Positions 1-64,000 of a stretch of DNA of 64,000 bases are shown one piece after another (positions within the stretch are counted from its first letter, which is position 1; each line of letters opens with the position of its first letter). Below the pieces are notes generated by a model. That model was not told where the DNA came from. It saw only the letters and a list, made by a program, of their open reading frames with translations, and did no database searches. A program made the translations under genes and the position numbers. Source of the DNA: Eledone cirrhosa (lineage: Eukaryota); the NCBI GenBank assembly GCA_964016885.1, contig OZ024740.1, positions 182,404,001 through 182,468,000 on the forward strand, read 5' to 3'.

Positions 1-734
1 ATGGGACAACTCATTTAAACCATACTAGCATGGAAAAATGGATGTCAAACAGTGATAATTATGATGATGATGGATGCAAAGCTGGTTCAGACACTGACTC
101 ATTAACAATTCCACCAACCCACCACCACTGGACTTGTAATTTTTTCATTGACCCCAACAGGTTGAAAGTTGACCTAAGATACTAGATTCTTCTAAAAAGA
201 AATAATTGTTATTCTCGATTCAACCTCCACCACGGCCACGAACACAACAACAACTACTACTACTACAGCTCCCATCATGACCACTATCAGCACATCCCCC
301 AAGTCAACCACCACAACAACAACAACCAACATCACAAGCCTCAACTGCACCAACACAACCACCACTACCACCACATTGGTTTCAGAGATATTCCTCATAT
401 CTATAACTTACATTATATCACTAAATATATTTCCATATTACCATCTATGTTATTTTATCTATAAGAGACTGAACTAGCTTCCATACTTTTTTCTTTCCTC
501 TTTAAAGTAAAGCAGACTTAGTTTTCCATTATTCCTACATTTACATTGGCTCCTGAGCCCATTAGCTCTGAAAATCTCGATATGACATGGAAAATGGACT
601 AAATAAAAATAATGCACACTCACACACACACACACACACATATATATATACAGCAAGGCACAATAAAAAAATATTATGGAAGAGCAATAATCTCAGTAAG
701 ATATGGATGAATTATATATGTATATATATATGTA

Positions 735-3700
735 TCATCATCATCATCACCGTTTTACGTCCGTTCTTCCACGCTAGCATGGGTTAGACGGGTTGTCCTG
801 TTGTGGACAGTGTCTGGTCGGCTGACCATGCCTTGCTCATACAGGAACTGATCTGGCTTGATTTCTACGGCTGGATGCCCTTCCTAACACCAACCTCATT
901 TACAGTGAGTGCTGGGTGCTTTTTCGTGGCGCCTACACGTCCACTTTACAGTGTGGACTGGGTGCTTTTTTGCCGTGGCACCTCCACGACCACCTTGCGG
1001 TGGGGAGTGTGGGGAGATATTGTCTATATGCTTCAGCTTGTACCCATGGGAGGTCGGGTACTCTGTATTACTGCGTGACGCCAGAAGTCACGGTCGTGTG
1101 TCATTGTCTTTGAGAGGTGTAATTGGGTAAGGTCGGCTTTTATCACCTCATCCCAGGTCATCTTGGGTCTCCCCACTCCACGGTTTCCATCAACTTCTAG
1201 TGCTCTGCACCTTTTTATGCAGCTGTCATCCTTCATACGCATCACATGTCCATACCAGCGCAACCGCCTCTCCTGCACACAGCATTTGATTCCTCTTATG
1301 CTCAGTCTCTCTCTCAATTCATTTATGCATTGTCGTTCATGTATATTACTGTTACACATCCATCGGAGCATGCAGGCTTCGTTTCTCTCTAATCTACGTA
1401 AGTCTTCCACCTTCAGCGCCCAGGTCTCACTACCATGCAACATCGCTGTTCGGATACACGCATCATACAGTCTGCCTTTCATTCTGAGGGAGAAGCCTTT
1501 TGCAGCTAGCAGTGGTAGTAGTTCCCTAAACTTCTTCCATCCCGTTCTTACCATAGTTATTGTACTTTCTGAACACCCACCTCCATTGCTAATTCGGTCA
1601 CCTAGGTAGCAGAAGCTGTCTACTGTTTCTGCAGGGCCCTCCCAGAGATTGGTGGTACTTGTTTCCTGTGGCTGTTGGCTGCTTGCTGTCCCAGCACAGC
1701 TGCTGCATGTGAATCCTACATTCTAAATTAAGCTTCCTGAGATCCCGTTACATCTCTTGTGTACCCATTGTTTGCATTTGGGGCAGAGAATGGAGTTCCT
1801 ACCTACACCTTTCCTACATACTGAGCAAGGCCATTTCCCTGAGGGGATCTGGGTTCTGTTTTCTCGTCTACTTACAAGGACCTTAGTCTTTGTCATGTTG
1901 ACTTTGAGACCCTTTCTTTCTAGTCCCTGCTTCCAAGTTTGGAATTTATTCTCTAGTTCTACCATAGATTCAGCTATGAGTGCAAGGTCATCAGCATACA
2001 GGAGTTCCCATGGGCATCCGGTCTTAAACTCCTCCGTTATTGCCTGCAGGACTATGATGAACAGGAGAGGGCTAAGAACAGAGCCCTGGTGGACCCCAAC
2101 CTGTACGTTAAATTACTCGCTATACTCATTGCTAATCCTAACTTTGCTGACTGCTCCCCTATACATGGCTTATACCGCTTTCACAAGCCATTCATCTACT
2201 CCTAATTTTCTAAGAGCCCACCAGATTACAGCACGTGGAACTCTGTCAAAGGCTTTCTCAAGGTCGACAAATGCCAAGTAGAGTGGCTTACTTTTAGCTA
2301 GGTACTTTTCCTGTAATTGCCTCACAAGGAAGAGGGCATCGGTGGTGCCTCTTCCTGGTACAAACCCAAATTGCATCTCGTCTATTTTCACCCGGTCCCT
2401 AATCAGCTGTGCTATAACTCTTTCTGTTACTTTCATGACCTGGTCCATCAACTTTATACCTCTATAGTTTCCTCTATCTAGTGCATTGTCTTTACCTTTG
2501 TAGCAGTTGACAATGATGCTACTGCACCAATCTTTTGGTATGGCACCTTCTAGTATTACCTGGTTAACGATACGTGTGGTTATAGTGTGACCTACAGACC
2601 CAGATGCCTTCAGCATCTCGGCAGCTATACCCGATGGACCGGTTGCCTTCCCCATCTTCATATCTTTGATTGCCTTACTTACTACGCTGCTGCTGACTTG
2701 TACTGCTGGTCCCTCTATAGGGTCTACTTGGGGTAGGGTCTCTTCTTCCCATGCATTCTCCTCATTTAGTAATCTATCATAATGACTCTTCCATGCATCT
2801 TTCTTCTCAGCACTTGTGAGGGCAAGCTCACCTTTATCGTTCCGGATACACTTCTCTCCAATGACATCACAACTATCTCTGACACACTGCCTCGCAATCT
2901 TAAATACCTCCTGTTTCTGGTCCTCACGTTGTAAAACATGCTTGAATTTTCTATCCTCTGCTTCCCTCCTAGCTAAGTATACTTGTCGCCTAGCTTCCCT
3001 CTTGGTCTCTATGTAATGTACCCTGCTCCCCCCGTTCTTCCATTCTTTCCATGCCTGTCTCTTGGCCTTAACTGATTCATCTACCTTATTGTTCCACCAC
3101 CAAATCACTCTCCTCCTGCTTGAGGTCTTACTCCAGCCACAGACCTCATCCGTCGCCTCTAGTAAATTATTTTTTAGGAACTCCCAGTTCTCTTCTACAT
3201 TAAATGTCTCTATCTGTTCTTCTTTACTGTCGTAGGCGTTGAGTAAAATATCTTTAAATCTGTTACTGGTTGAGGGGACTTTCAGCTTCCAGATCTTTCT
3301 TCTCCAGGTTGGCCTCTGTTTCCGGGTTCGTCTAGTTCTGACCGTGAGGTCGCTGACAACTAAGCTATGTTGGGATGTACATTCCTCACTAGGGAAGGCT
3401 TTTGTGTTTACGACCGTCCATCTTTCACGTCCTCTGATGAGGATAAAATCTAACTGACTAGGTGATCAGGTGGTTGTCGGGTTTTTTAAAGTTTGTGTTA
3501 CATATCAACATGTCATTGGTGTCGCAGAATTCTAGAAGTCTGAATCCTTCCTCATTCCTTGTGCCAACCCCATGGCCTCCATGTTCTCTATTGAAGCCGT
3601 CGCAGTGTTTACCTACGTGTCCGTTAAAATCTCCTGCGATGATTAGGAAGTCATTGTCATCTGTTAGAGCAGTAGTGTGCATTAGGGACTCGTAAAACCT

Positions 3701-3761
3701 ATCCTTAAGTTCGTCTGGCAGCCCCGATTGGGGTGCGTTAGCTGATATTATTGTGGTAATT

Positions 3762-3765
<4 letters not shown>
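735..3765 (-). mobile_element. RTE-clade LINE, family A, copy 1; 5'-truncated in the APE domain, (ATG)n 3' tail
   Basis: Minus-strand ORF pieces give APE motifs (IIAGDFNGHVG, NTNFKK) and RT motifs (QFGFVPGRGTTDA, AFVDLEKAFDRV, GVHQGSVLSP, LLYADDL), plus an RTE C-terminus (HGSETW, RLRWYGHVMR). (CAT)n lies at 735-750 on +, and the 5' end abuts (TA)n at 3766. Confidence 0.95.
1033..3765 (-). pseudogene. Disrupted APE-RT ORF of RTE-A copy 1
   Basis: In-frame TAA at 2170-2172 and 2113-2115, TAG at 1723-1725, and a 20-bp deletion near 3459 relative to copy 2. Confidence 0.92.
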
Positions 3766-3804
<39 letters not shown>

Positions 3805-3807
<3 letters not shown>

Positions 3808-3989
3808 GTTTCTACTTTTGGCACAAGGCCAGCAATAACCCAGTGTATTACTGGTACTTTATTTTATCGACCCCATAAGGATGAAAGGCAAAGTTAACAT
3901 CGAAGGGATTTGAACTCAATGTATATATATATATAATAACATATCATATATATACATATATACATCATAATCATATATATATATATATT

Positions 3990-4037
<48 letters not shown>

Positions 4038-5575
4038 CACACACATATATATATATATATGTATATATATGTATATATATGTATATATATGTATATATAT
4101 ACATATATAGACATATATATATATATATAATATATATATATGTATATATATAAAAAAAGCAACAAAAATCTATCCATATGAATAAAAACTTTAATATGAC
4201 TAATAATAAAAATAATAATTGTTTCTATTTTAGGCACAAGGCCAGCAATTACTCAGTGCATTACTGGTACTTTATTTTATTGACCCCGTAAGGATGAAAG
4301 GCAAAGTCAACCTCGGCATAATAATAAAAACAATAATGATAAGAATATGAAAGGAAGAAGAAAACTAGCAGGAGGAGGAGAATCAAGATGGATGATAAGA
4401 AAACATAAAGAATGGAAATGTATAAGGAAGTGAGAATGGAAATAAGAAACATCACCTGAAATAAGTATAATACTGATAAATAAAATGGCTAAACAACAAT
4501 AACTACTATTAATATTAATGATAATAATGCTGATGTTGATGATGATGATAGTGGTGGTGGTGGTGGGAATGAGGATGATGATAGCGGTGGTGGTGGAGGA
4601 GATGAGGATGATGATTGCGGTGGTGGTGGTGGTGGTGGTGGGGATGAGGATAATTATAATTGTTTCTACTTTTGGCACAAGGTCAGCAATTCCCCAGTGT
4701 ATTACTGGTACTTTATTCTATCGACCCCGTAAGGATGAAAGGCAAAGTTAACCTCGGCGGGATTTGAACTCAGATCATACAGGGAGGTAACTCTATGCTT
4801 CAAAGCATGGCATCCGACCCTCTACCGGAGGATAATTATAATGATAATAGCTAAACCACAATAACTACTATTAACATTAATGATAATAATGATGATGGCG
4901 GTGGTGGTGGTGATGGTGGCGGCGGGGGATGAGGATGATGATAATGATGATAAAGATAATAATTGTTTCTACTTTGAGCACAAGGCCAGCAATTACCCCA
5001 GTGTATTACTGGTACTTTAATTTATCCACCCCGTAAGGATGAAAGGCAAGTTAACCTTGGCGGGATTTGGACTGAGATCATAAAGGGCCGTAACTCTACG
5101 CTGCAAAGCATGGTGTCCGGCCCTCTACTGATACTGCCAATCCACCGATAAAGATAATATTGATTTCTAGTATAGGTAGAAGGCCAGTAATTTTGGAGAG
5201 GGGAAATTAAATCGACCCCAGTACGTTACTGGTGCCTTATTTTATCAACGCCAGAAGGATGACAAGCAAAGTTAACCTCGGCAGGATTTGAACACAGATC
5301 TTAAAGGGCCGTAACTCTATGCTGCAAAGCATCATGTCCCGCCCGCTACCAATACTGCCAATCCACCGATAAAGATAATAATTGTTTCTACTTTTGGCAC
5401 AAGGCCAGCAATTATCCCAGTGCATTACTGGTACTTTATCTTATCGACCCCATAAGGATGAAAGGTAAAGTTAACCTCAACGGGATTTGAACTCAGTCCG
5501 CAAAGGGACGTAACTCGATGCTGGAAAGCATGGCGTCCGACTCTCTACCAATACTACCAATCCGCCATCCTTAGA
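3805..5575 (-). mobile_element. Cluster of six tRNA-derived SINE copies (Meta-domain-like body), partly head-to-tail
   Basis: Repeated unit tttctact..ggcacaaggccagcaat..ctggtactttattttatcgacccc..aaggatgaaaggcaaagttaacctcggcgggatttgaactcag starts near 3805, 4218, 4660, 4962, 5163 and 5381. The minus strand reads GAGTTCAAATCCC (B-box-like) followed by GCCTTTCATCCTT..GGGGTCGATAAAAT..AGTACCAG. The domain name is from recall only. Confidence 0.8.
3926..4151. repeat. (TA)n/(CA)n compound microsatellite
   Basis: Directly visible. Confidence 0.95.
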
Positions 5576-5599
5576 TAAAGATAATAATTATGGCAAAGT

Positions 5600-6095
5600 A
5601 GTTGTCAATAATGATGATGTTGATGATGATAATGGCAGTGTTGGTGATGGTGGCGTTGGTGGTGTTGGTGTCGTTGGGGATAAGGCTGATGATAATGATG
5701 ACGGCCAATGAGAATAAGAATGTTCATGATGATGATAATGATAAAGGTGGTGGTGGTGGTATTGTTGGCAATGATGACAATGGTGGTGGTGGTATTGATG
5801 ATGATGATGATAACAACGATGGCAAAGAGGATGATGAAAATGTAGTGGTGGTGTTGATAATGATGACGGCCATGAGAATAAGGATGTTCATGATGATGAT
5901 CATGATGATAATGATAATGGTGGTGGTGGTGGCAATGATGAAGATGGTGTTAGTGATAATGATGATGATAATGATGATGATGATGACAACGACGATGATG
6001 AGAAGAAGGCGGAGGAAGAGGGTTGGATGAAGTGGACGACATCGATGAAAAGGAGGAGAATGGTGACGAACAACAACAATAACTACAACAACAAC
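5600..6095. repeat. (GAT)n/(GGT)n low-complexity trinucleotide tract
   Basis: Directly visible; it is the source of the spurious Met/Asp/Val-rich ORFs. Confidence 0.9.
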
Positions 6096-40392: not shown

Positions 40393-41156
40393 TTAGGGAT
40401 AAGTGTTTAGATGGGGTCCGTATTTGTTAATGAAGTAAGATTCCTTGCTGATGCGCTGGGTGTGGGTGGCATCATCTTTAAATTTGTAGAGGGGAAAGAT
40501 TCTAAAGTTGGGATGATTTTGGGCGGCACAGGTATCAATGTGTTCACTCAGTGGTATTTTCCTGTATTCCCGTATTTTGATTTGGGATCTATGGACAGTC
40601 ATGCGTTGGCGGAGGCTGTTTTTGGTCCGGCCTATGTATTGTTCTCGACAACCTGAACAAGTTAATACATATATTAGATTTTCCAATGCACATGTGAAAT
40701 TGTGTTTTACTATAAAACGTTGTCCATCTTTGAAATAGAATTCCGAACCCTCTATTAGGTTGATGCAGATGCCACAGTTGGGTCTATCGCATTTTTTTAC
40801 TGTGCGTTTCGTTGTTGTGGTTGGCAGTACTTTGGCATGTGTTAAGATGTTTTTCATTGACTTGGATTGTCTTTTGCTCTTTATGATATTGTGTGTTCGT
40901 AGAATTTGGTTCATTCTATGGTCCTTTTTCAATACAGGGATGTTCTGGAGGATGGTGTCAAAAGCCTCATTGTTGAGGGGGTTGTGTGTGGAGATGTATG
41001 GAAGAGCTTTTAGTTTTGGTTGATTTACTTTAGGGTGTCTAAGGTCCTGGGTACTGAGTTTTAGGGCACGTTGGATTCCATTGTCAATTAGTGATGCAGG
41101 GTAGTCCCTGCCTATGAGTGTGTCCTTTAGTTCTTGTAGCCGTAAGTAGCAGATGT
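40393..41156 (-). CDS. PLE-1 C-terminal ORF: end of RT thumb, Cys-rich linker, GIY-YIG endonuclease (Neptune-like, tentative)
   Basis: LIGRDYPASLI, CDRPNCGIC, NLIYVLTCSGCREQYIGRT..LRQRMTVH, ESYFI. The frame is open, but the annotated start (41178) lies in the inverted repeat. Confidence 0.88.
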
Positions 41157-41226
41157 TAAAAACAGGTAGAATTCCCAAAACTAATCAGATCAGAGCAAAC
41201 AGCATGGACACTCTATCTCAAAATTA

Positions 41227-45146: not shown

Positions 45147-45349
45147 TGAGAGAGATGGGTATAGGAACTTTCTTTTAAGAATAGGTTCAGGAAAGCTTTA
45201 CATCATGCATATGCTGAAAGGGAAGATGAATTAGATACACATGATATTGAGGATGATTGGAAGTTCCGATTGCACACTACTGAGGAGACATTTGGCTAGA
45301 ACAAAGCATCAGTCAGAAAGAGGGTGTATTGGTAGTGGAACTGTAATTC

Positions 45350-46335
45350 CAGGTGACAGGCAGGGACATACTAGGAAAATAGGAATAGCAGAAACTTGTT
45401 CCAGGTAGCTAAAAAAGAAACTAGCCAACAAGTGTATATAGCATGTAAATAAGCTGAAAGGAGGAGCGTTTCAAATGCCTTGTGACATGAAGATCAGCGA
45501 TGTGGCGTGTTCTGCATCACAAGGCAATGTGTCAGTGTGAATTAGGATGTTGTTGAGGAAAGGTGTGTTCAAAATGACACTGGTGCACTTAGCATAAGTG
45601 ATGCTCAAAAGAAATTGGCTTGGAAATCTCACTATCAGAAGCTGATGAATATATAGAATGAATGAGGAAGAATGACTATCCCCAGCTGACCCACCAACGC
45701 GTCAGCTATCCAAACTGAGAGTTATGAGGTCAAAGAACCAATCAAGGAGATGAAAAATGAAATGGTAAAGCCACTGACCCCATAGCGATAGTCAGAGAGA
45801 TGCTTTCAGCATCTGTGGAAGTGGCTGCTAAGCCAGTCAGTCACCTATCATTGTCACTCAGATAATACAGGATGTGGTTATACCGAGTGACTGGCACAAC
45901 AGTATAATTAATAATTGCTACAAGTAAAAAGGAGCTTCTACAGAGGAATAAAATTAATACACCAAGTTATGAATATGACCGAAAGAGTTCTAGTACAACT
46001 AATTAGGGTGAAATTTAAATTAGAGGAGATACAGTTCAGTTTTGTGTGAGACTGGATTGCAAGAGATGTACTATCTTTAGTGAGACAAGAAGAGAAGTTC
46101 TTAGCCAAAGATAAGCCTCTATTTCTTGGTTTTGTTGATCTAGAGAAAGCCTTTGATAGAGTACCTTGATATATTAGCAGGTGGTCCTTAAGGAAACTGG
46201 GTGTGGAAGAATGGCTTGTAAGAGCAGTGCAATCTGTGTACAGAGATTCTGTAAGTAAAGTGATAATAGGATGTGAGTTTAATGAGGAATTCAAAATGCA
46301 GGTACGAATGCATCATGGCTCAGTCTCAGTCCTTG
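45350..46335 (+). mobile_element. Old degenerate RTE (A-related) internal fragment, linker to RT
   Basis: gcttggaaatctcactat (AWKSHY), YRGIKLI, FVDLEKAFDRVP, LRKLGVEEWLVRAVQSVY..FNEEFKMQV..HHGSV, with many stops. Confidence 0.88.
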
Positions 46336-60846: not shown

Positions 60847-63800
60847 CATCATCATCATCATCATCATCATCATCACCGTTTTACGTCCGTTCTTCCACGC
60901 TAGCATGGGTTAGACGGGTTGTCCTGTTGTGGGCAGTGTCTGGTCGGCTGACCATGCCTTGCTCATACAGGAACTGATTTGGCTTGATTTCTACAGCTGG
61001 ATGCCCTTCCTAATACCAACCTCATTTACAGTGAGTGCTGGGTGCTTTTTCGTGGCGCCTACACGTCCACTTTACAGTGTGGGCTGGGTGCTTTTTTGCC
61101 ATGGCACCTCCATGACCACCTTGCGGTGGGGGGTGTGGGGGCATATTGTCTATATGCTTCAGCTTGTAACCATGGGAGGTCGGGTACTCTGTATTACTGC
61201 GTGACACCAGAGGTCACGGTCGTGTGTCATTGCCTTTGAGAGGTGTAATTGGGTAAGGTCGGCTTTTATCACCTCATCACAGGTCATCTTGGGTCTCCCC
61301 ACTCCGCGGTTTCCATCAACTTCTAGTGCTCTGCACCTTTTTATGCAGCTGTCATCCTTCATACGCATCACATGTCCATACCAGCACAACCGCCTCTCCT
61401 GCACACAGCATTTGATTCCTCTTATGCTCAGTCTCTCTCTCAATTCATTTATGCTTTGTCGTTCACGTATATTACTGTTACACATCCATCGGAGCATGCA
61501 GGCTTCGTTTCTCTCTAATCTACGTAAGTCTTCCACCTTCAGCGCCCAGGTCTCACTACCATGCAACATTGCTGTTCAGATACACGCATCATACAGTCTG
61601 CCTTTCATTCTGAGGGAGAAGCCTTTTGCAGCTAGCAGTGGTAGTAGTTCCCTAAACTTCTTCCATCCTATTCTTACCCTAGTTATTGTACTTTCTGAAC
61701 ACCCTCCTCCGCTGCTAATTCGGTCACCTAGGTAGCAGAAGCTGTCTACTGTTTCTACAGAGCCCTCCCAGAGATTGGTGGTACTTGTTTCCTGTGGCTG
61801 TTTGCTGCTTGCTGTCCCAGCACAGCTGCTGCATGTGAAGCCTACATTCTTAATTAAGCTTCCTGAGATCCCGCTACATCTCTTGTGTACCCATTGTTTG
61901 CATTTGGGGCAGAGAATGGAGTTCCTACCTACACCTTTCCTACATACTGAGCAAGGCCATTTCCCTGAGGGGATCTGGGTTCTGTTTTCCCATCTACTTA
62001 CAAGGACCTTAGTCTTTGTCATGTTGACTTTGAGACCCTTTCTTTCAAGTCCCTGCTTCCAAGTTTGGAATTTATTCTCTAGTTCTACCATAGATTCAGC
62101 TATGAGTGCGAGGTCATCAGCATACAGGAGTTCCCATGGGCATCCGGTCTTAAACACCTCCGTTATTGCCTGCAGGACTATGATGAACAGGAGAGGGCTA
62201 AGAACAGAGCCCTGGTGGACCCCAACCTGTACGTTAAATTACTCGCTATACTCATTGCTAATCCTAACTTTGCTGACTGCTCCCCTATACATGGCTTATA
62301 CCGCTTTCACAAGCCATTCATCTACTCCTAGTTTTCTAAGAGCCCACCAGATTACAGCACGTGGAACTCTGTCAAAGGCTTTCTCAAGGTCGACAAATGC
62401 CAAGTAGAGTGGCTTACTTTTAGCTAGGTACTTTTCCTGTAACTGCCTCACAAGGAAGAGGGCATCAGTGGTGCCTCTTCCTGGTACAAACCCAAATTGC
62501 ATCTCGTCTATTTTCACCCGGTCCCTAATCAGCTGTGCTATAACTCTTTCTGTTGCTTTCATGACCTGGTCCATCAACTTTATACCTCTATAGTTTCCTC
62601 TATCTAGTGCATCGCCTTTACCTTTGTAGCAGTTGACAATGATGCTACTGCACCAATCTTTTGGTATGACACCTTCTAGTATTACCTGGTTAACAATACG
62701 TGTGGTTATAGTGTGACCTACAGACCCAGATGCCTTTAGCATCTCGGCAGCTATAGCTGATGGACCGGTTGCCTTCCCCATCTTCATATCTTTGATTGCC
62801 TTACTTACTACGTTGCTGCTGACTTGTACTGCTGGCCCCTCTATAGGGTCTACTTGGGGTAGGGTCTCTTCTTCCCATGCATTCTCCTCATTTAGTAATC
62901 TATCATAATGACTCTTCCATACATCTTTCTTCTCAGCACTTGTGAGGGCAAGCTCACCTTTATCATTCCGGATACACTTCTCTCCATTGACATCACAACT
63001 ATCTCTGACACACTGCCTCGCAATCTTGAATACCTCCTGTTTCTGGTCCTCACATTGCAAGACATGCTTGAATTTTCTATCCTCTGCTTCCCTCCTAGCT
63101 AAGTATACTTGTCGCCTAGCTTCCCTCTTGGTCTCTATGTAATGTACCCTGCTCCTCCCATTCTTCCATTCTTTCCATGCCTGTCTCTTGGCCTTAACTG
63201 CTTCATTTACCTTATTGTTCCACCACCAAGTCACTCTCCTCCTGCTTGAGGTCTTACTCCAGCCACAGACCTCATCCGTCGCCTCTAGTAAATTATTTTT
63301 TAGGAACTCCCAGTTCTCTTCTACATTAAATGTCTGTATCTGTTCTTCTTTACTGTCATAGGCGTTGAGTAAAATATCTTTAAATCTGTTACTGGTTGAG
63401 GGGACTTTCAGCTTCCAGATCTTTCTTCTCCAGGTTGGCCTCTGTTTCCGGGTTCGTCTAGTTCTGACCGTGAGGTCGCTGACAACTAAGCTATGTTGGG
63501 ATGTACATTCCTCACTGGGGAAGGCTTTTGTGTTGACGACTGTCCATCTTTCACGTCTCTGATGAGGATAAAATCTATCTGACTGGAGTGCTCCCCTGAT
63601 CTATAGGTGATCAGGTGGTTGTCGGGTTTTTTAAAGTTTGTGTTACATATCAACATGTCATTGGTGTCGCAGAATTCTAGAAGTCTGAATCCTTCCTCAT
63701 TTCTTGTGCCAACCCCATGGCCTCCATGTTCTCTATTGAAGCCGTCGCAGTGTTTACCTACGTGTCCGTTAAAATCTCCTGCGATGATTAGGAAGTCATT

Positions 63801-64000
63801 GTCGTCTGTTAGAGCAGTAGTGTGCATTAGGGACTCGTAAAACCTATCCTTAAGTTCGTCTGGCAGCCCCGATTGGGGTGCGTAAGCTGATATTATTGTG
63901 GTAATTGTTTTATTCAGGACTAGTCTGAGTTTAATGATTCTTGCATTTACCCTGTACACTGAGATTACTTTATCTACCCACTTGTCAGCTAGTAGTATAC
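60847..64000 (-). mobile_element. RTE-clade LINE, family A, copy 2 (continues past the window end)
   Basis: Colinear with 735-3765 at an offset of about 60126; (CAT)n at 60847-60874; APE motifs IISAYAPQSG and AGDFNGHVG. Confidence 0.95.
61159..64000 (-). pseudogene. Disrupted APE-RT ORF of RTE-A copy 2
   Basis: TAA at 62296-62298 and 62239-62241 (shared with copy 1), a private TGA at 61576-61578, and a private 1-bp deletion near 63557. Confidence 0.92.

What the first reader, a model, noticed from the sequence alone, without database searches (positions are those of the whole stretch)
2113..2172. Two RTE-A copies 60 kb apart share the same two nonsense codons in RT: a dead master copied in trans?
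Seen: both copies read KAV*AMYRGAVSKVRISNEYSE*FNVQVG (TAA at 2170 and 2113; 62296 and 62239). The older relative at 46203-46320 has Q and E at these sites, so the stops look derived. The copies have unrelated 3' flanks, different 5' extents and private lesions (1723, ~3459, 61576, ~63557). Inference: either a non-autonomous source element was mobilised by another RTE, which fits the foreign 3' tail, or one copy was templated from the other by gene conversion or local duplication.
Basis: partly seen in the sequence, partly recalled or inferred. Interest (0 to 1): 0.7.

Follow-up and report, generated by a model that had tools for sequence, protein, structure and literature searches.

The report
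Neighbouring LINE copies swap mutations
Two dead jumping-gene copies 60 kb apart carry the same two stop codons, a pair found together nowhere else in the genome, likely because short stretches were copied from one neighbour into the other, and nearby copies elsewhere on the chromosome also share rare mutations more often than distant ones.

Summary
Of 5,627 genome-wide pattern matches, 5,560 carry neither stop, 55 the first, 10 the second and 2 both: exactly these two copies (second pattern agrees). The copies are separate insertions: different 5' truncations, unrelated 3' flanks, 16 differences at 103 lineage-marking sites, separate tree positions. Yet they share 7 rare alleles in two short patches (3585-3424, 2172-2108), and no other near-full copy lies within the 499 kb read. 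Best reading: patchy non-allelic gene conversion between neighbours after insertion (0.65). In 87 unselected copies elsewhere on the chromosome, pairs under 300 kb apart share 38 rare alleles against 9.3 after shuffling positions, so the case is not unique. Main rival: local cross-talk during assembly (0.2); the read check was inconclusive and found no contig with the second stop. Known process (Alu, LTRs); the roughly 300-kb reach exceeds the about 10 kb cited for Alu. Earlier scan notes on other DNA of this genome proposed similar copying between LINE copies.

The parts
734..3765 (-). Copy A: 5'-truncated non-LTR retrotransposon (endonuclease remnant, RT, Cys-rich PHD-like motif, ~300-bp 3' UTR, (GAT)n tail), set in a TA microsatellite
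60860..64000 (-). Copy B: same family, older lineage haplotype, 5' end about 64044 (just outside the window); 3' flank single-copy
2170..2172 (-). Shared stop 1 in A (TAA; family codon Gln)
2113..2115 (-). Shared stop 2 in A (TAA; family codon Glu)
62296..62298 (-). Shared stop 1 in B
62239..62241 (-). Shared stop 2 in B
2108..2172 (-). Shared patch 2 in A: three rare alleles (2172, 2115, 2108) inside a 174-bp run of A/B identity (2031-2204); B equivalent 62234-62298
3424..3585 (-). Shared patch 1 in A: four rare alleles (3585, 3520, 3507, 3424; two are CpG-type), interrupted by lineage differences at 3557 and 3453 and by both indels; B equivalent 63550-63730
1723..1725 (-). Private stop in A
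61576..61578 (-). Private stop in B
63584..63603 (-). 20 bp present in B and the family, deleted in A (at 3459/3460)
3800..3918 (-). Short interspersed repeat (SINE-like; label from memory) directly 5' of A; a copy of the same repeat lies directly 5' of B at about 64092-64213
45171..46325 (+). Older relative (41% amino-acid identity to an intact family ORF) with Q and E at the two stop positions

Best explanation
A and B are two separate, dead insertions of one LINE family that share seven rare alleles, both stops among them, most likely because short patches were copied from one to the other by non-allelic gene conversion after insertion. Shown: the insertions are independent (different truncations, flanks, lineage haplotypes), the shared alleles are confined to this pair, they fall in two patches, and neighbours elsewhere share rare alleles in excess. 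Inferred: one copy gained the stops by ordinary neutral decay; during repair of a DNA break in one copy the neighbour, its only close homologue within the 499 kb read, served as template; the interruptions in the 5' patch would come from patchy mismatch repair or several short events. Direction and number of events are not determined.
For: Both stops together only at A and B, 2 of 5,627 matches, with two different patterns; 3585 allele 2 matches in the genome; 5 shared non-CpG rare alleles against 0.085 expected by coincidence; the 7 alleles fit two patches totalling 225 bp, P=0.0002 (post hoc statistic); A and B fall on different rungs of the family tree in both halves and A's lineage pattern matches unlinked L153 and L008; rare changes in A and B look neutral (syn/nonsyn/stop 5/11/3 and 8/16/3) while lineage sites are 47 syn to 26 nonsyn; only A and B are near-full copies in 499 kb; neighbour excess in an unselected sample: under 300 kb 38 alleles in 25 of 208 pairs against 9.3 and 7.7 shuffled, P=0.0003, none at 0.3-1 Mb, robust to dropping satellite-embedded copies and two top pairs; excess is larger when both copies are older (20.7 vs 4.4 per 1,000) than when one is young (3.3 vs 0.55), as a process that accumulates with time predicts; identity runs around shared alleles are slightly longer in close pairs (mean percentile 0.61, n=42, p=0.014).
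Against: No read evidence that both loci carry the stops: no contig of runs X7-X9 matched the stop-2 plus 2108 haplotype (depth 0 at 62235-62239). Patch 1 is not contiguous: lineage differences at 3557 and 3453 and both indels lie inside it, and allele 3424 sits in only 16 bp of identity. 60 kb, and up to 300 kb in the sample, is well beyond the about 10 kb cited for Alu. The neighbour sample is one region (first 33 Mb of one chromosome), and part of its excess could be sister insertions from minor sources.
Confidence: 0.65

Rival explanations
1. Assembly artefact: during read correction or polishing, reads or alleles from one copy leaked into the consensus of its neighbour, site by site.
For: Site-by-site interleaving in patch 1; both copies lie on one gap-free stretch (no N in 499 kb); no contig of X7-X9 carries the stop-2 haplotype; would also give a general neighbour excess.
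Against: About 55 private differences and 16 lineage differences persist; shared alleles cluster in two patches rather than uniformly; the excess is lowest per allele in old-young pairs and not highest in near-identical young pairs (7.9 per 1,000, 4 alleles only); contigs drop rare variants and only one of B's private clusters showed among the listed pieces (63032-63084), so their silence is weak; mis-mapped reads would be expected to import the family majority base, not a neighbour's private base (inference).
Confidence: 0.2
2. A is a chimeric insertion or a DNA-level local copy of B that was later overwritten by younger family members, the shared alleles being what is left of the common origin.
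For: Every older-type lineage allele of A is also in B; both copies have the same short repeat directly 5', seen in only 1 of 102 other truncated copies.
Against: A's interleaved lineage pattern is reproduced by unlinked L153 and L008, which random overwriting by the abundant youngest copies would not give; the two upstream repeats are only about 87% alike, no more than other local copies; other flanks unrelated; a chimera would need four or more template switches.
Confidence: 0.1
3. A non-autonomous source element carrying both stops was retrotransposed in trans by an intact family member.
For: Helpers exist: 7 of 18 long copies tested have stop-free frames of 1,015-1,048 aa. Three stop-2 carriers (A, L008, L103) sit close in the 3' tree.
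Against: No unlinked copy carries both stops; A and B are not sisters; L008 and L103 share no further rare allele with A; the tail is the family's normal tail.
Confidence: 0.03
4. Parallel mutation: the same changes arose twice by chance.
For: Each stop recurs singly (55 and 10 copies); two of the seven alleles are CpG-type and occur together in 8 other copies.
Against: Per-copy chance of both stops 1.8e-5; five non-CpG alleles shared against 0.085 expected; 3585 allele unique to the pair.
Confidence: 0.01

Closest known systems
Non-allelic gene conversion between neighbouring Alu elements (Aleshin and Zhi 2010, seen only second-hand in passages of PMC8230782 and PMC6598467; the paper itself was not held)
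   Same: Independent retrotransposon insertions share non-diagnostic mutations in excess, more so when close; mosaic patterns within copies.
   Different: Here a 3-kb LINE in an invertebrate, and the excess reaches 100-300 kb rather than about 10 kb; single assembly, not confirmed by reads.
Gene conversion among LTR elements (PMC4921805, PMC5751070; search listing and start of abstract only)
   Same: Sequence exchange between dispersed or paired retroelement copies after insertion.
   Different: Non-LTR element; partner is a separate insertion 60 kb away, not the sister LTR of one element.
RTE-clade LINEs of octopus such as RTE-2_OV (PMC9115989, passages)
   Same: Single ORF with endonuclease, RT and a Cys-rich zinc-binding motif; microsatellite 3' end; recent activity.
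   Different: ORF here 1,039 aa against 1,109 aa; no sequence comparison or tree with RTE-2_OV was made, so identity of family is open.
Trans-mobilised non-autonomous retroelements such as SVA (PMC3287187, search listing and start of abstract)
   Same: Would explain shared disabling mutations if many unlinked copies carried them.
   Different: No unlinked copies, no diagnostic sub-family: defining feature not met.

Membership tests
Non-autonomous sub-family mobilised in trans | Several unlinked insertions carry the same disabling mutations | tested here: not met
   2 of 5,627 matches, both in this window
Non-autonomous sub-family mobilised in trans | Carriers form one clade over their whole length | tested here: not met
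   A and B on different rungs in both halves; 16 of 103 lineage sites differ
Non-autonomous sub-family mobilised in trans | An intact helper with the same 3' end exists | tested here: met
   7 of 18 long copies with frames over 1,000 aa; same 3' UTR
Non-allelic gene conversion between TE copies | Copies are independent insertions | tested here: met
   Different truncation, flanks and lineage haplotype; no informative TSD could be read
Non-allelic gene conversion between TE copies | Rare non-diagnostic alleles shared beyond chance, in local tracts | tested here: met
   5 non-CpG vs 0.085 expected; two patches, P=0.0002
Non-allelic gene conversion between TE copies | Tracts are contiguous (co-conversion of adjacent differences) | tested here: inconclusive
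   Patch 2 contiguous over 174 bp; patch 1 interrupted at 3557, 3453 and two indels
Non-allelic gene conversion between TE copies | Sharing falls with distance | tested here: met
   Excess under 300 kb, none at 0.3-1 Mb; one chromosome region only
Non-allelic gene conversion between TE copies | Alleles present at both loci in raw DNA; unconverted state seen in other individuals or species | tested here: inconclusive
   Contigs and RAD reads neither phase nor cover the haplotype
Segmental or local duplication | Shared flanks and shared insertion junctions | tested here: not met
   Flanks unrelated apart from common short repeats
RTE-clade LINE | Single ORF with AP-type endonuclease and RT, short 3' UTR ending in a microsatellite | tested here: met
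   Pfam RVT_1 above cut-off; Exo_endo_phos_2 below cut-off (24.2 vs 27.4 bits) on a truncated piece; one 1,039-aa ORF in L193; (GAT)n end
RTE-clade LINE | RT groups with reference RTE elements in a tree | not tested
   No reference RTs at hand; the clade name rests on architecture and memory

The most novel reading that the evidence does not exclude
In this genome, dead LINE copies exchange short patches with neighbours up to about 300 kb away, some thirty times the range cited for Alu, in either orientation, at a rate high enough to put about a fifth of a copy's rare alleles (7 of 31 in A) into its neighbour; this would let the family map the reach of homology search in the germline and would bias ages and sub-family calls of LINEs.
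Probability: 0.4. Interest if true: 0.55.

Novelty: new member of a known kind. Interest (0 to 1): 0.33.

Why it matters
The shared stops are not a sign of a parasitic sub-family, so the finding as flagged is modest. What remains is a clean example, and a small systematic signal, of neighbouring LINE copies sharing rare mutations. If real, thousands of nearly identical copies offer a natural ruler for how far ectopic repair reaches and a warning for dating insertions by divergence; if an artefact, it marks a distance-dependent assembly error that would mislead any copy-level analysis of this genome.

Tried and rejected
Dead master in trans: rejected by genome-wide counts. A stop-2 sub-lineage (A, L008, L103): no further shared rare alleles, and L008's 8-bp deletion differs from A's 20-bp one. 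The 3520+3507 pair as a lineage marker: 10 matches against 1,838 with the family bases; the 8 others lack the 3585 allele where covered and are mostly older, so CpG decay explains them; one search used a mis-designed pattern (1 match) and was redone. Alternative haplotig of the locus for an independent consensus: none found. Read test: X7-X9 (one sample, contigs) and X10, X11 (RAD reads) gave no verdict; a stop-1 contig of depth 50.9 exists in X7 but other copies carry stop 1 too. TSDs: only a TA microsatellite match for A, none for B. Protein atlas gave no answer, so the clade was not placed. Third neighbours sharing A/B alleles: only CpG-type sites and 2108 in 83-91% relatives, not informative.

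Full report
Observation. The window holds two minus-strand copies of one non-LTR retrotransposon: A at 734-3765 and B from 60860 to about 64044, just past the window end. Pfam finds RT on both sides of the stops, a PHD-like Cys motif after it, and a weak endonuclease match below cut-off on B's 5' piece. An intact relative (L193) has one ORF of 1,039 aa, and 7 of 18 long copies tested have stop-free frames over 1,000 aa. The name RTE rests on this architecture and on memory; no tree with reference elements was made. That the host is an octopus-like animal is my inference from the repeats, not a tool result.

Test of the dead-master idea. Exact patterns with the same 20-base context gave 5,560 matches with neither stop, 55 with stop 1 only, 10 with stop 2 only and 2 with both, A and B. 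A second pattern with other anchors again gave only A and B. Of 10 matches to a stop-2 pattern, only A and B also have the 2108 allele. Exact patterns miss copies mutated in the anchors, so counts are lower bounds, but a sub-family would have shown. Under independence 0.10 doubles are expected genome-wide, so two within 60 kb need copying between them or an assembly error. The tail is the ordinary family tail: 96.7-99.3% identity to six other copies.

Are A and B sisters? No. Trees of the 3' and 5' halves show a ladder-like family with A and B on different rungs in both. At 103 lineage-marking sites they differ at 16, whereas A differs from unlinked L153 at 6 of 102 and from L008 at 8 of 101, and B from L029 at 9 of 90; the interleaved pattern of A is reproduced by those unlinked copies. 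The ladder is not perfect: intermediate copies show some mosaicism. Lineage sites are mostly silent (47 of 73), rare changes in A and B are not (5/11/3 and 8/16/3 silent/missense/stop), as expected for a selected source line and neutral decay of its copies. Flanks are unrelated apart from common short repeats, B's 3' flank is single-copy, and no informative target-site duplication could be read.

What they share. Seven rare alleles, in A coordinates 3585, 3520, 3507, 3424 and 2172, 2115, 2108: 7 of A's 31 and 7 of B's 36 rare alleles in the overlap. In 90 copies kept from the first 100 stop-free matches on the chromosome (10 dropped for divergence over 6% or under 1,200 aligned bases) they occur in 0 of 37, 0 of 37, 2 of 37, 0 of 40 and, for 2108, 0 of 90; the zero counts for the two stops are by construction. 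The 3585 allele has 2 matches in the genome. The two CpG-type alleles occur together in 8 other copies against 1,838 with family bases. Five shared non-CpG alleles compare with 0.085 expected by coincidence, and seven points fit two patches of 225 bp in total with P=0.0002, a statistic chosen after seeing the data. Patch 2, with the stops, lies in a 174-bp run of identity. Patch 1 is interrupted by lineage differences at 3557 and 3453 and by both indels; this counts against a single simple tract. In 499 kb around the window, free of gaps, A and B are the only near-full copies; three shorter relatives are 83-91% alike.

Is it general? Among unselected copies from the first 33 Mb of the same chromosome, non-CpG alleles carried by 2-3 copies are shared by close pairs in excess. 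With flank-sharing duplicates dropped (L195, L192, L188; 87 copies), pairs under 100 kb share 10 alleles against 2.1 after shuffling positions within age classes, pairs at 100-300 kb 28 against 7.2 (both P=0.0003), pairs at 0.3-1 Mb 18 against 14.2 (P=0.22). Dropping all 24 satellite-embedded copies (66 left) gives 36 against 9.2 under 300 kb, and dropping L170 and L160 as well 23 against 7.1 (first version). Many sharing pairs have unrelated flanks and differ at many lineage sites, some (L159/L160) differ at few and may be sisters. The excess is larger when both copies are older (20.7 vs 4.4 per 1,000 rare alleles) than in old-young pairs (3.3 vs 0.55), young-young 7.9 vs 0.78 on 4 alleles; same and opposite orientation are alike (9.1 and 11.1). 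This is one region near a chromosome end, not the genome.

Reads. Three contig sets of one sample held 0.81-0.85 of the sampled words. At 100% likeness one contig across stop 1 appears in X7 (depth 50.9), but other copies carry that stop; no contig of X7-X9 covers 62235-62239, so the stop-2 plus 2108 haplotype was not seen; the few X11 reads there end at the stop position. Contigs drop rare variants, only one of B's private clusters showed among listed pieces, and it is unknown whether this sample is the assembled individual. The test neither confirms nor excludes an artefact.

Mechanism. Shown: independent insertions, pair-specific shared alleles in two patches, neighbour excess elsewhere. 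Inferred: the stops arose by decay in one copy and were carried to the other when a break was repaired from the nearest homologue; interruptions reflect patchy mismatch repair or several short events. I put this at 0.65, assembly cross-talk at 0.2, a local copy or chimera later overwritten at 0.1, a dead master at 0.03, chance at 0.01.

Comparison with what is known. Passages of PMC8230782 and PMC6598467 report, citing Aleshin and Zhi 2010, excess sharing of non-diagnostic mutations between neighbouring Alus within about 10 kb; I could not read that paper. Conversion among LTRs is in print (PMC4921805, PMC5751070; listing only). Passages of PMC9115989 describe octopus RTE elements of like build; PMC13282606 has no occurrence of 'gene conversion' in its main text (supplement not read). 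My searches listed no report of conversion between neighbouring LINE copies in cephalopods, but the library lacks most subscription journals. Two unreviewed notes of this scan on other DNA of this genome propose copying between LINE copies; I did not test them. Verdict: real in the assembly, not a trans-mobilised dead master, most likely a new instance of a known process; the long reach is the part worth following.

Noticed in passing
window 3800-3918 and about 64092-64213 (L033:5092-5213): Both A and B have the 3' end of the same short repeat (SINE-like) within about 50 bp of their 5' truncation, same orientation; only 1 of 102 other truncated copies does. The repeat is dense here (85 hits in 499 kb) and the two copies are only about 87% alike. 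Could be SINE-LINE template-switch chimeras or chance; unexplained.
   Followed up: partly
G000:C1 about 7.5-9.6 Mb (L175-L200): 24 of 26 consecutive sampled family copies are inserted in one short-unit satellite; L194/L195 and L191/L192 are duplicated with their flanks.
   Followed up: partly
window 63517-63557 and 3459: Both A/B indels and three B-private substitutions lie within about 70 bp around shared allele 3424, the densest cluster of changes in the pair; could be a scar of error-prone repair or a local assembly error.
   Followed up: no
L035:853-, i.e. about 9.1-10.5 kb before the window start: An 83%-identical older relative, 5'-truncated right at this region, carries the same base as A and B at 2108, so that allele may be a reversion or come from an older copy.
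   Followed up: no
window 4200-5600: Tandem array of units made of the same SINE-like repeat plus GAT/GGT microsatellite.
   Followed up: no
window 40396-41184 (-): 263-aa stop-free frame that from memory resembles a Penelope-like element; not searched.
   Followed up: no
L033:5274-5625 (window coordinates 64274-64625): Two direct copies of a ~170-bp unit (78% alike) upstream of B; part of B's 3' flank looks similar by eye.
   Followed up: no
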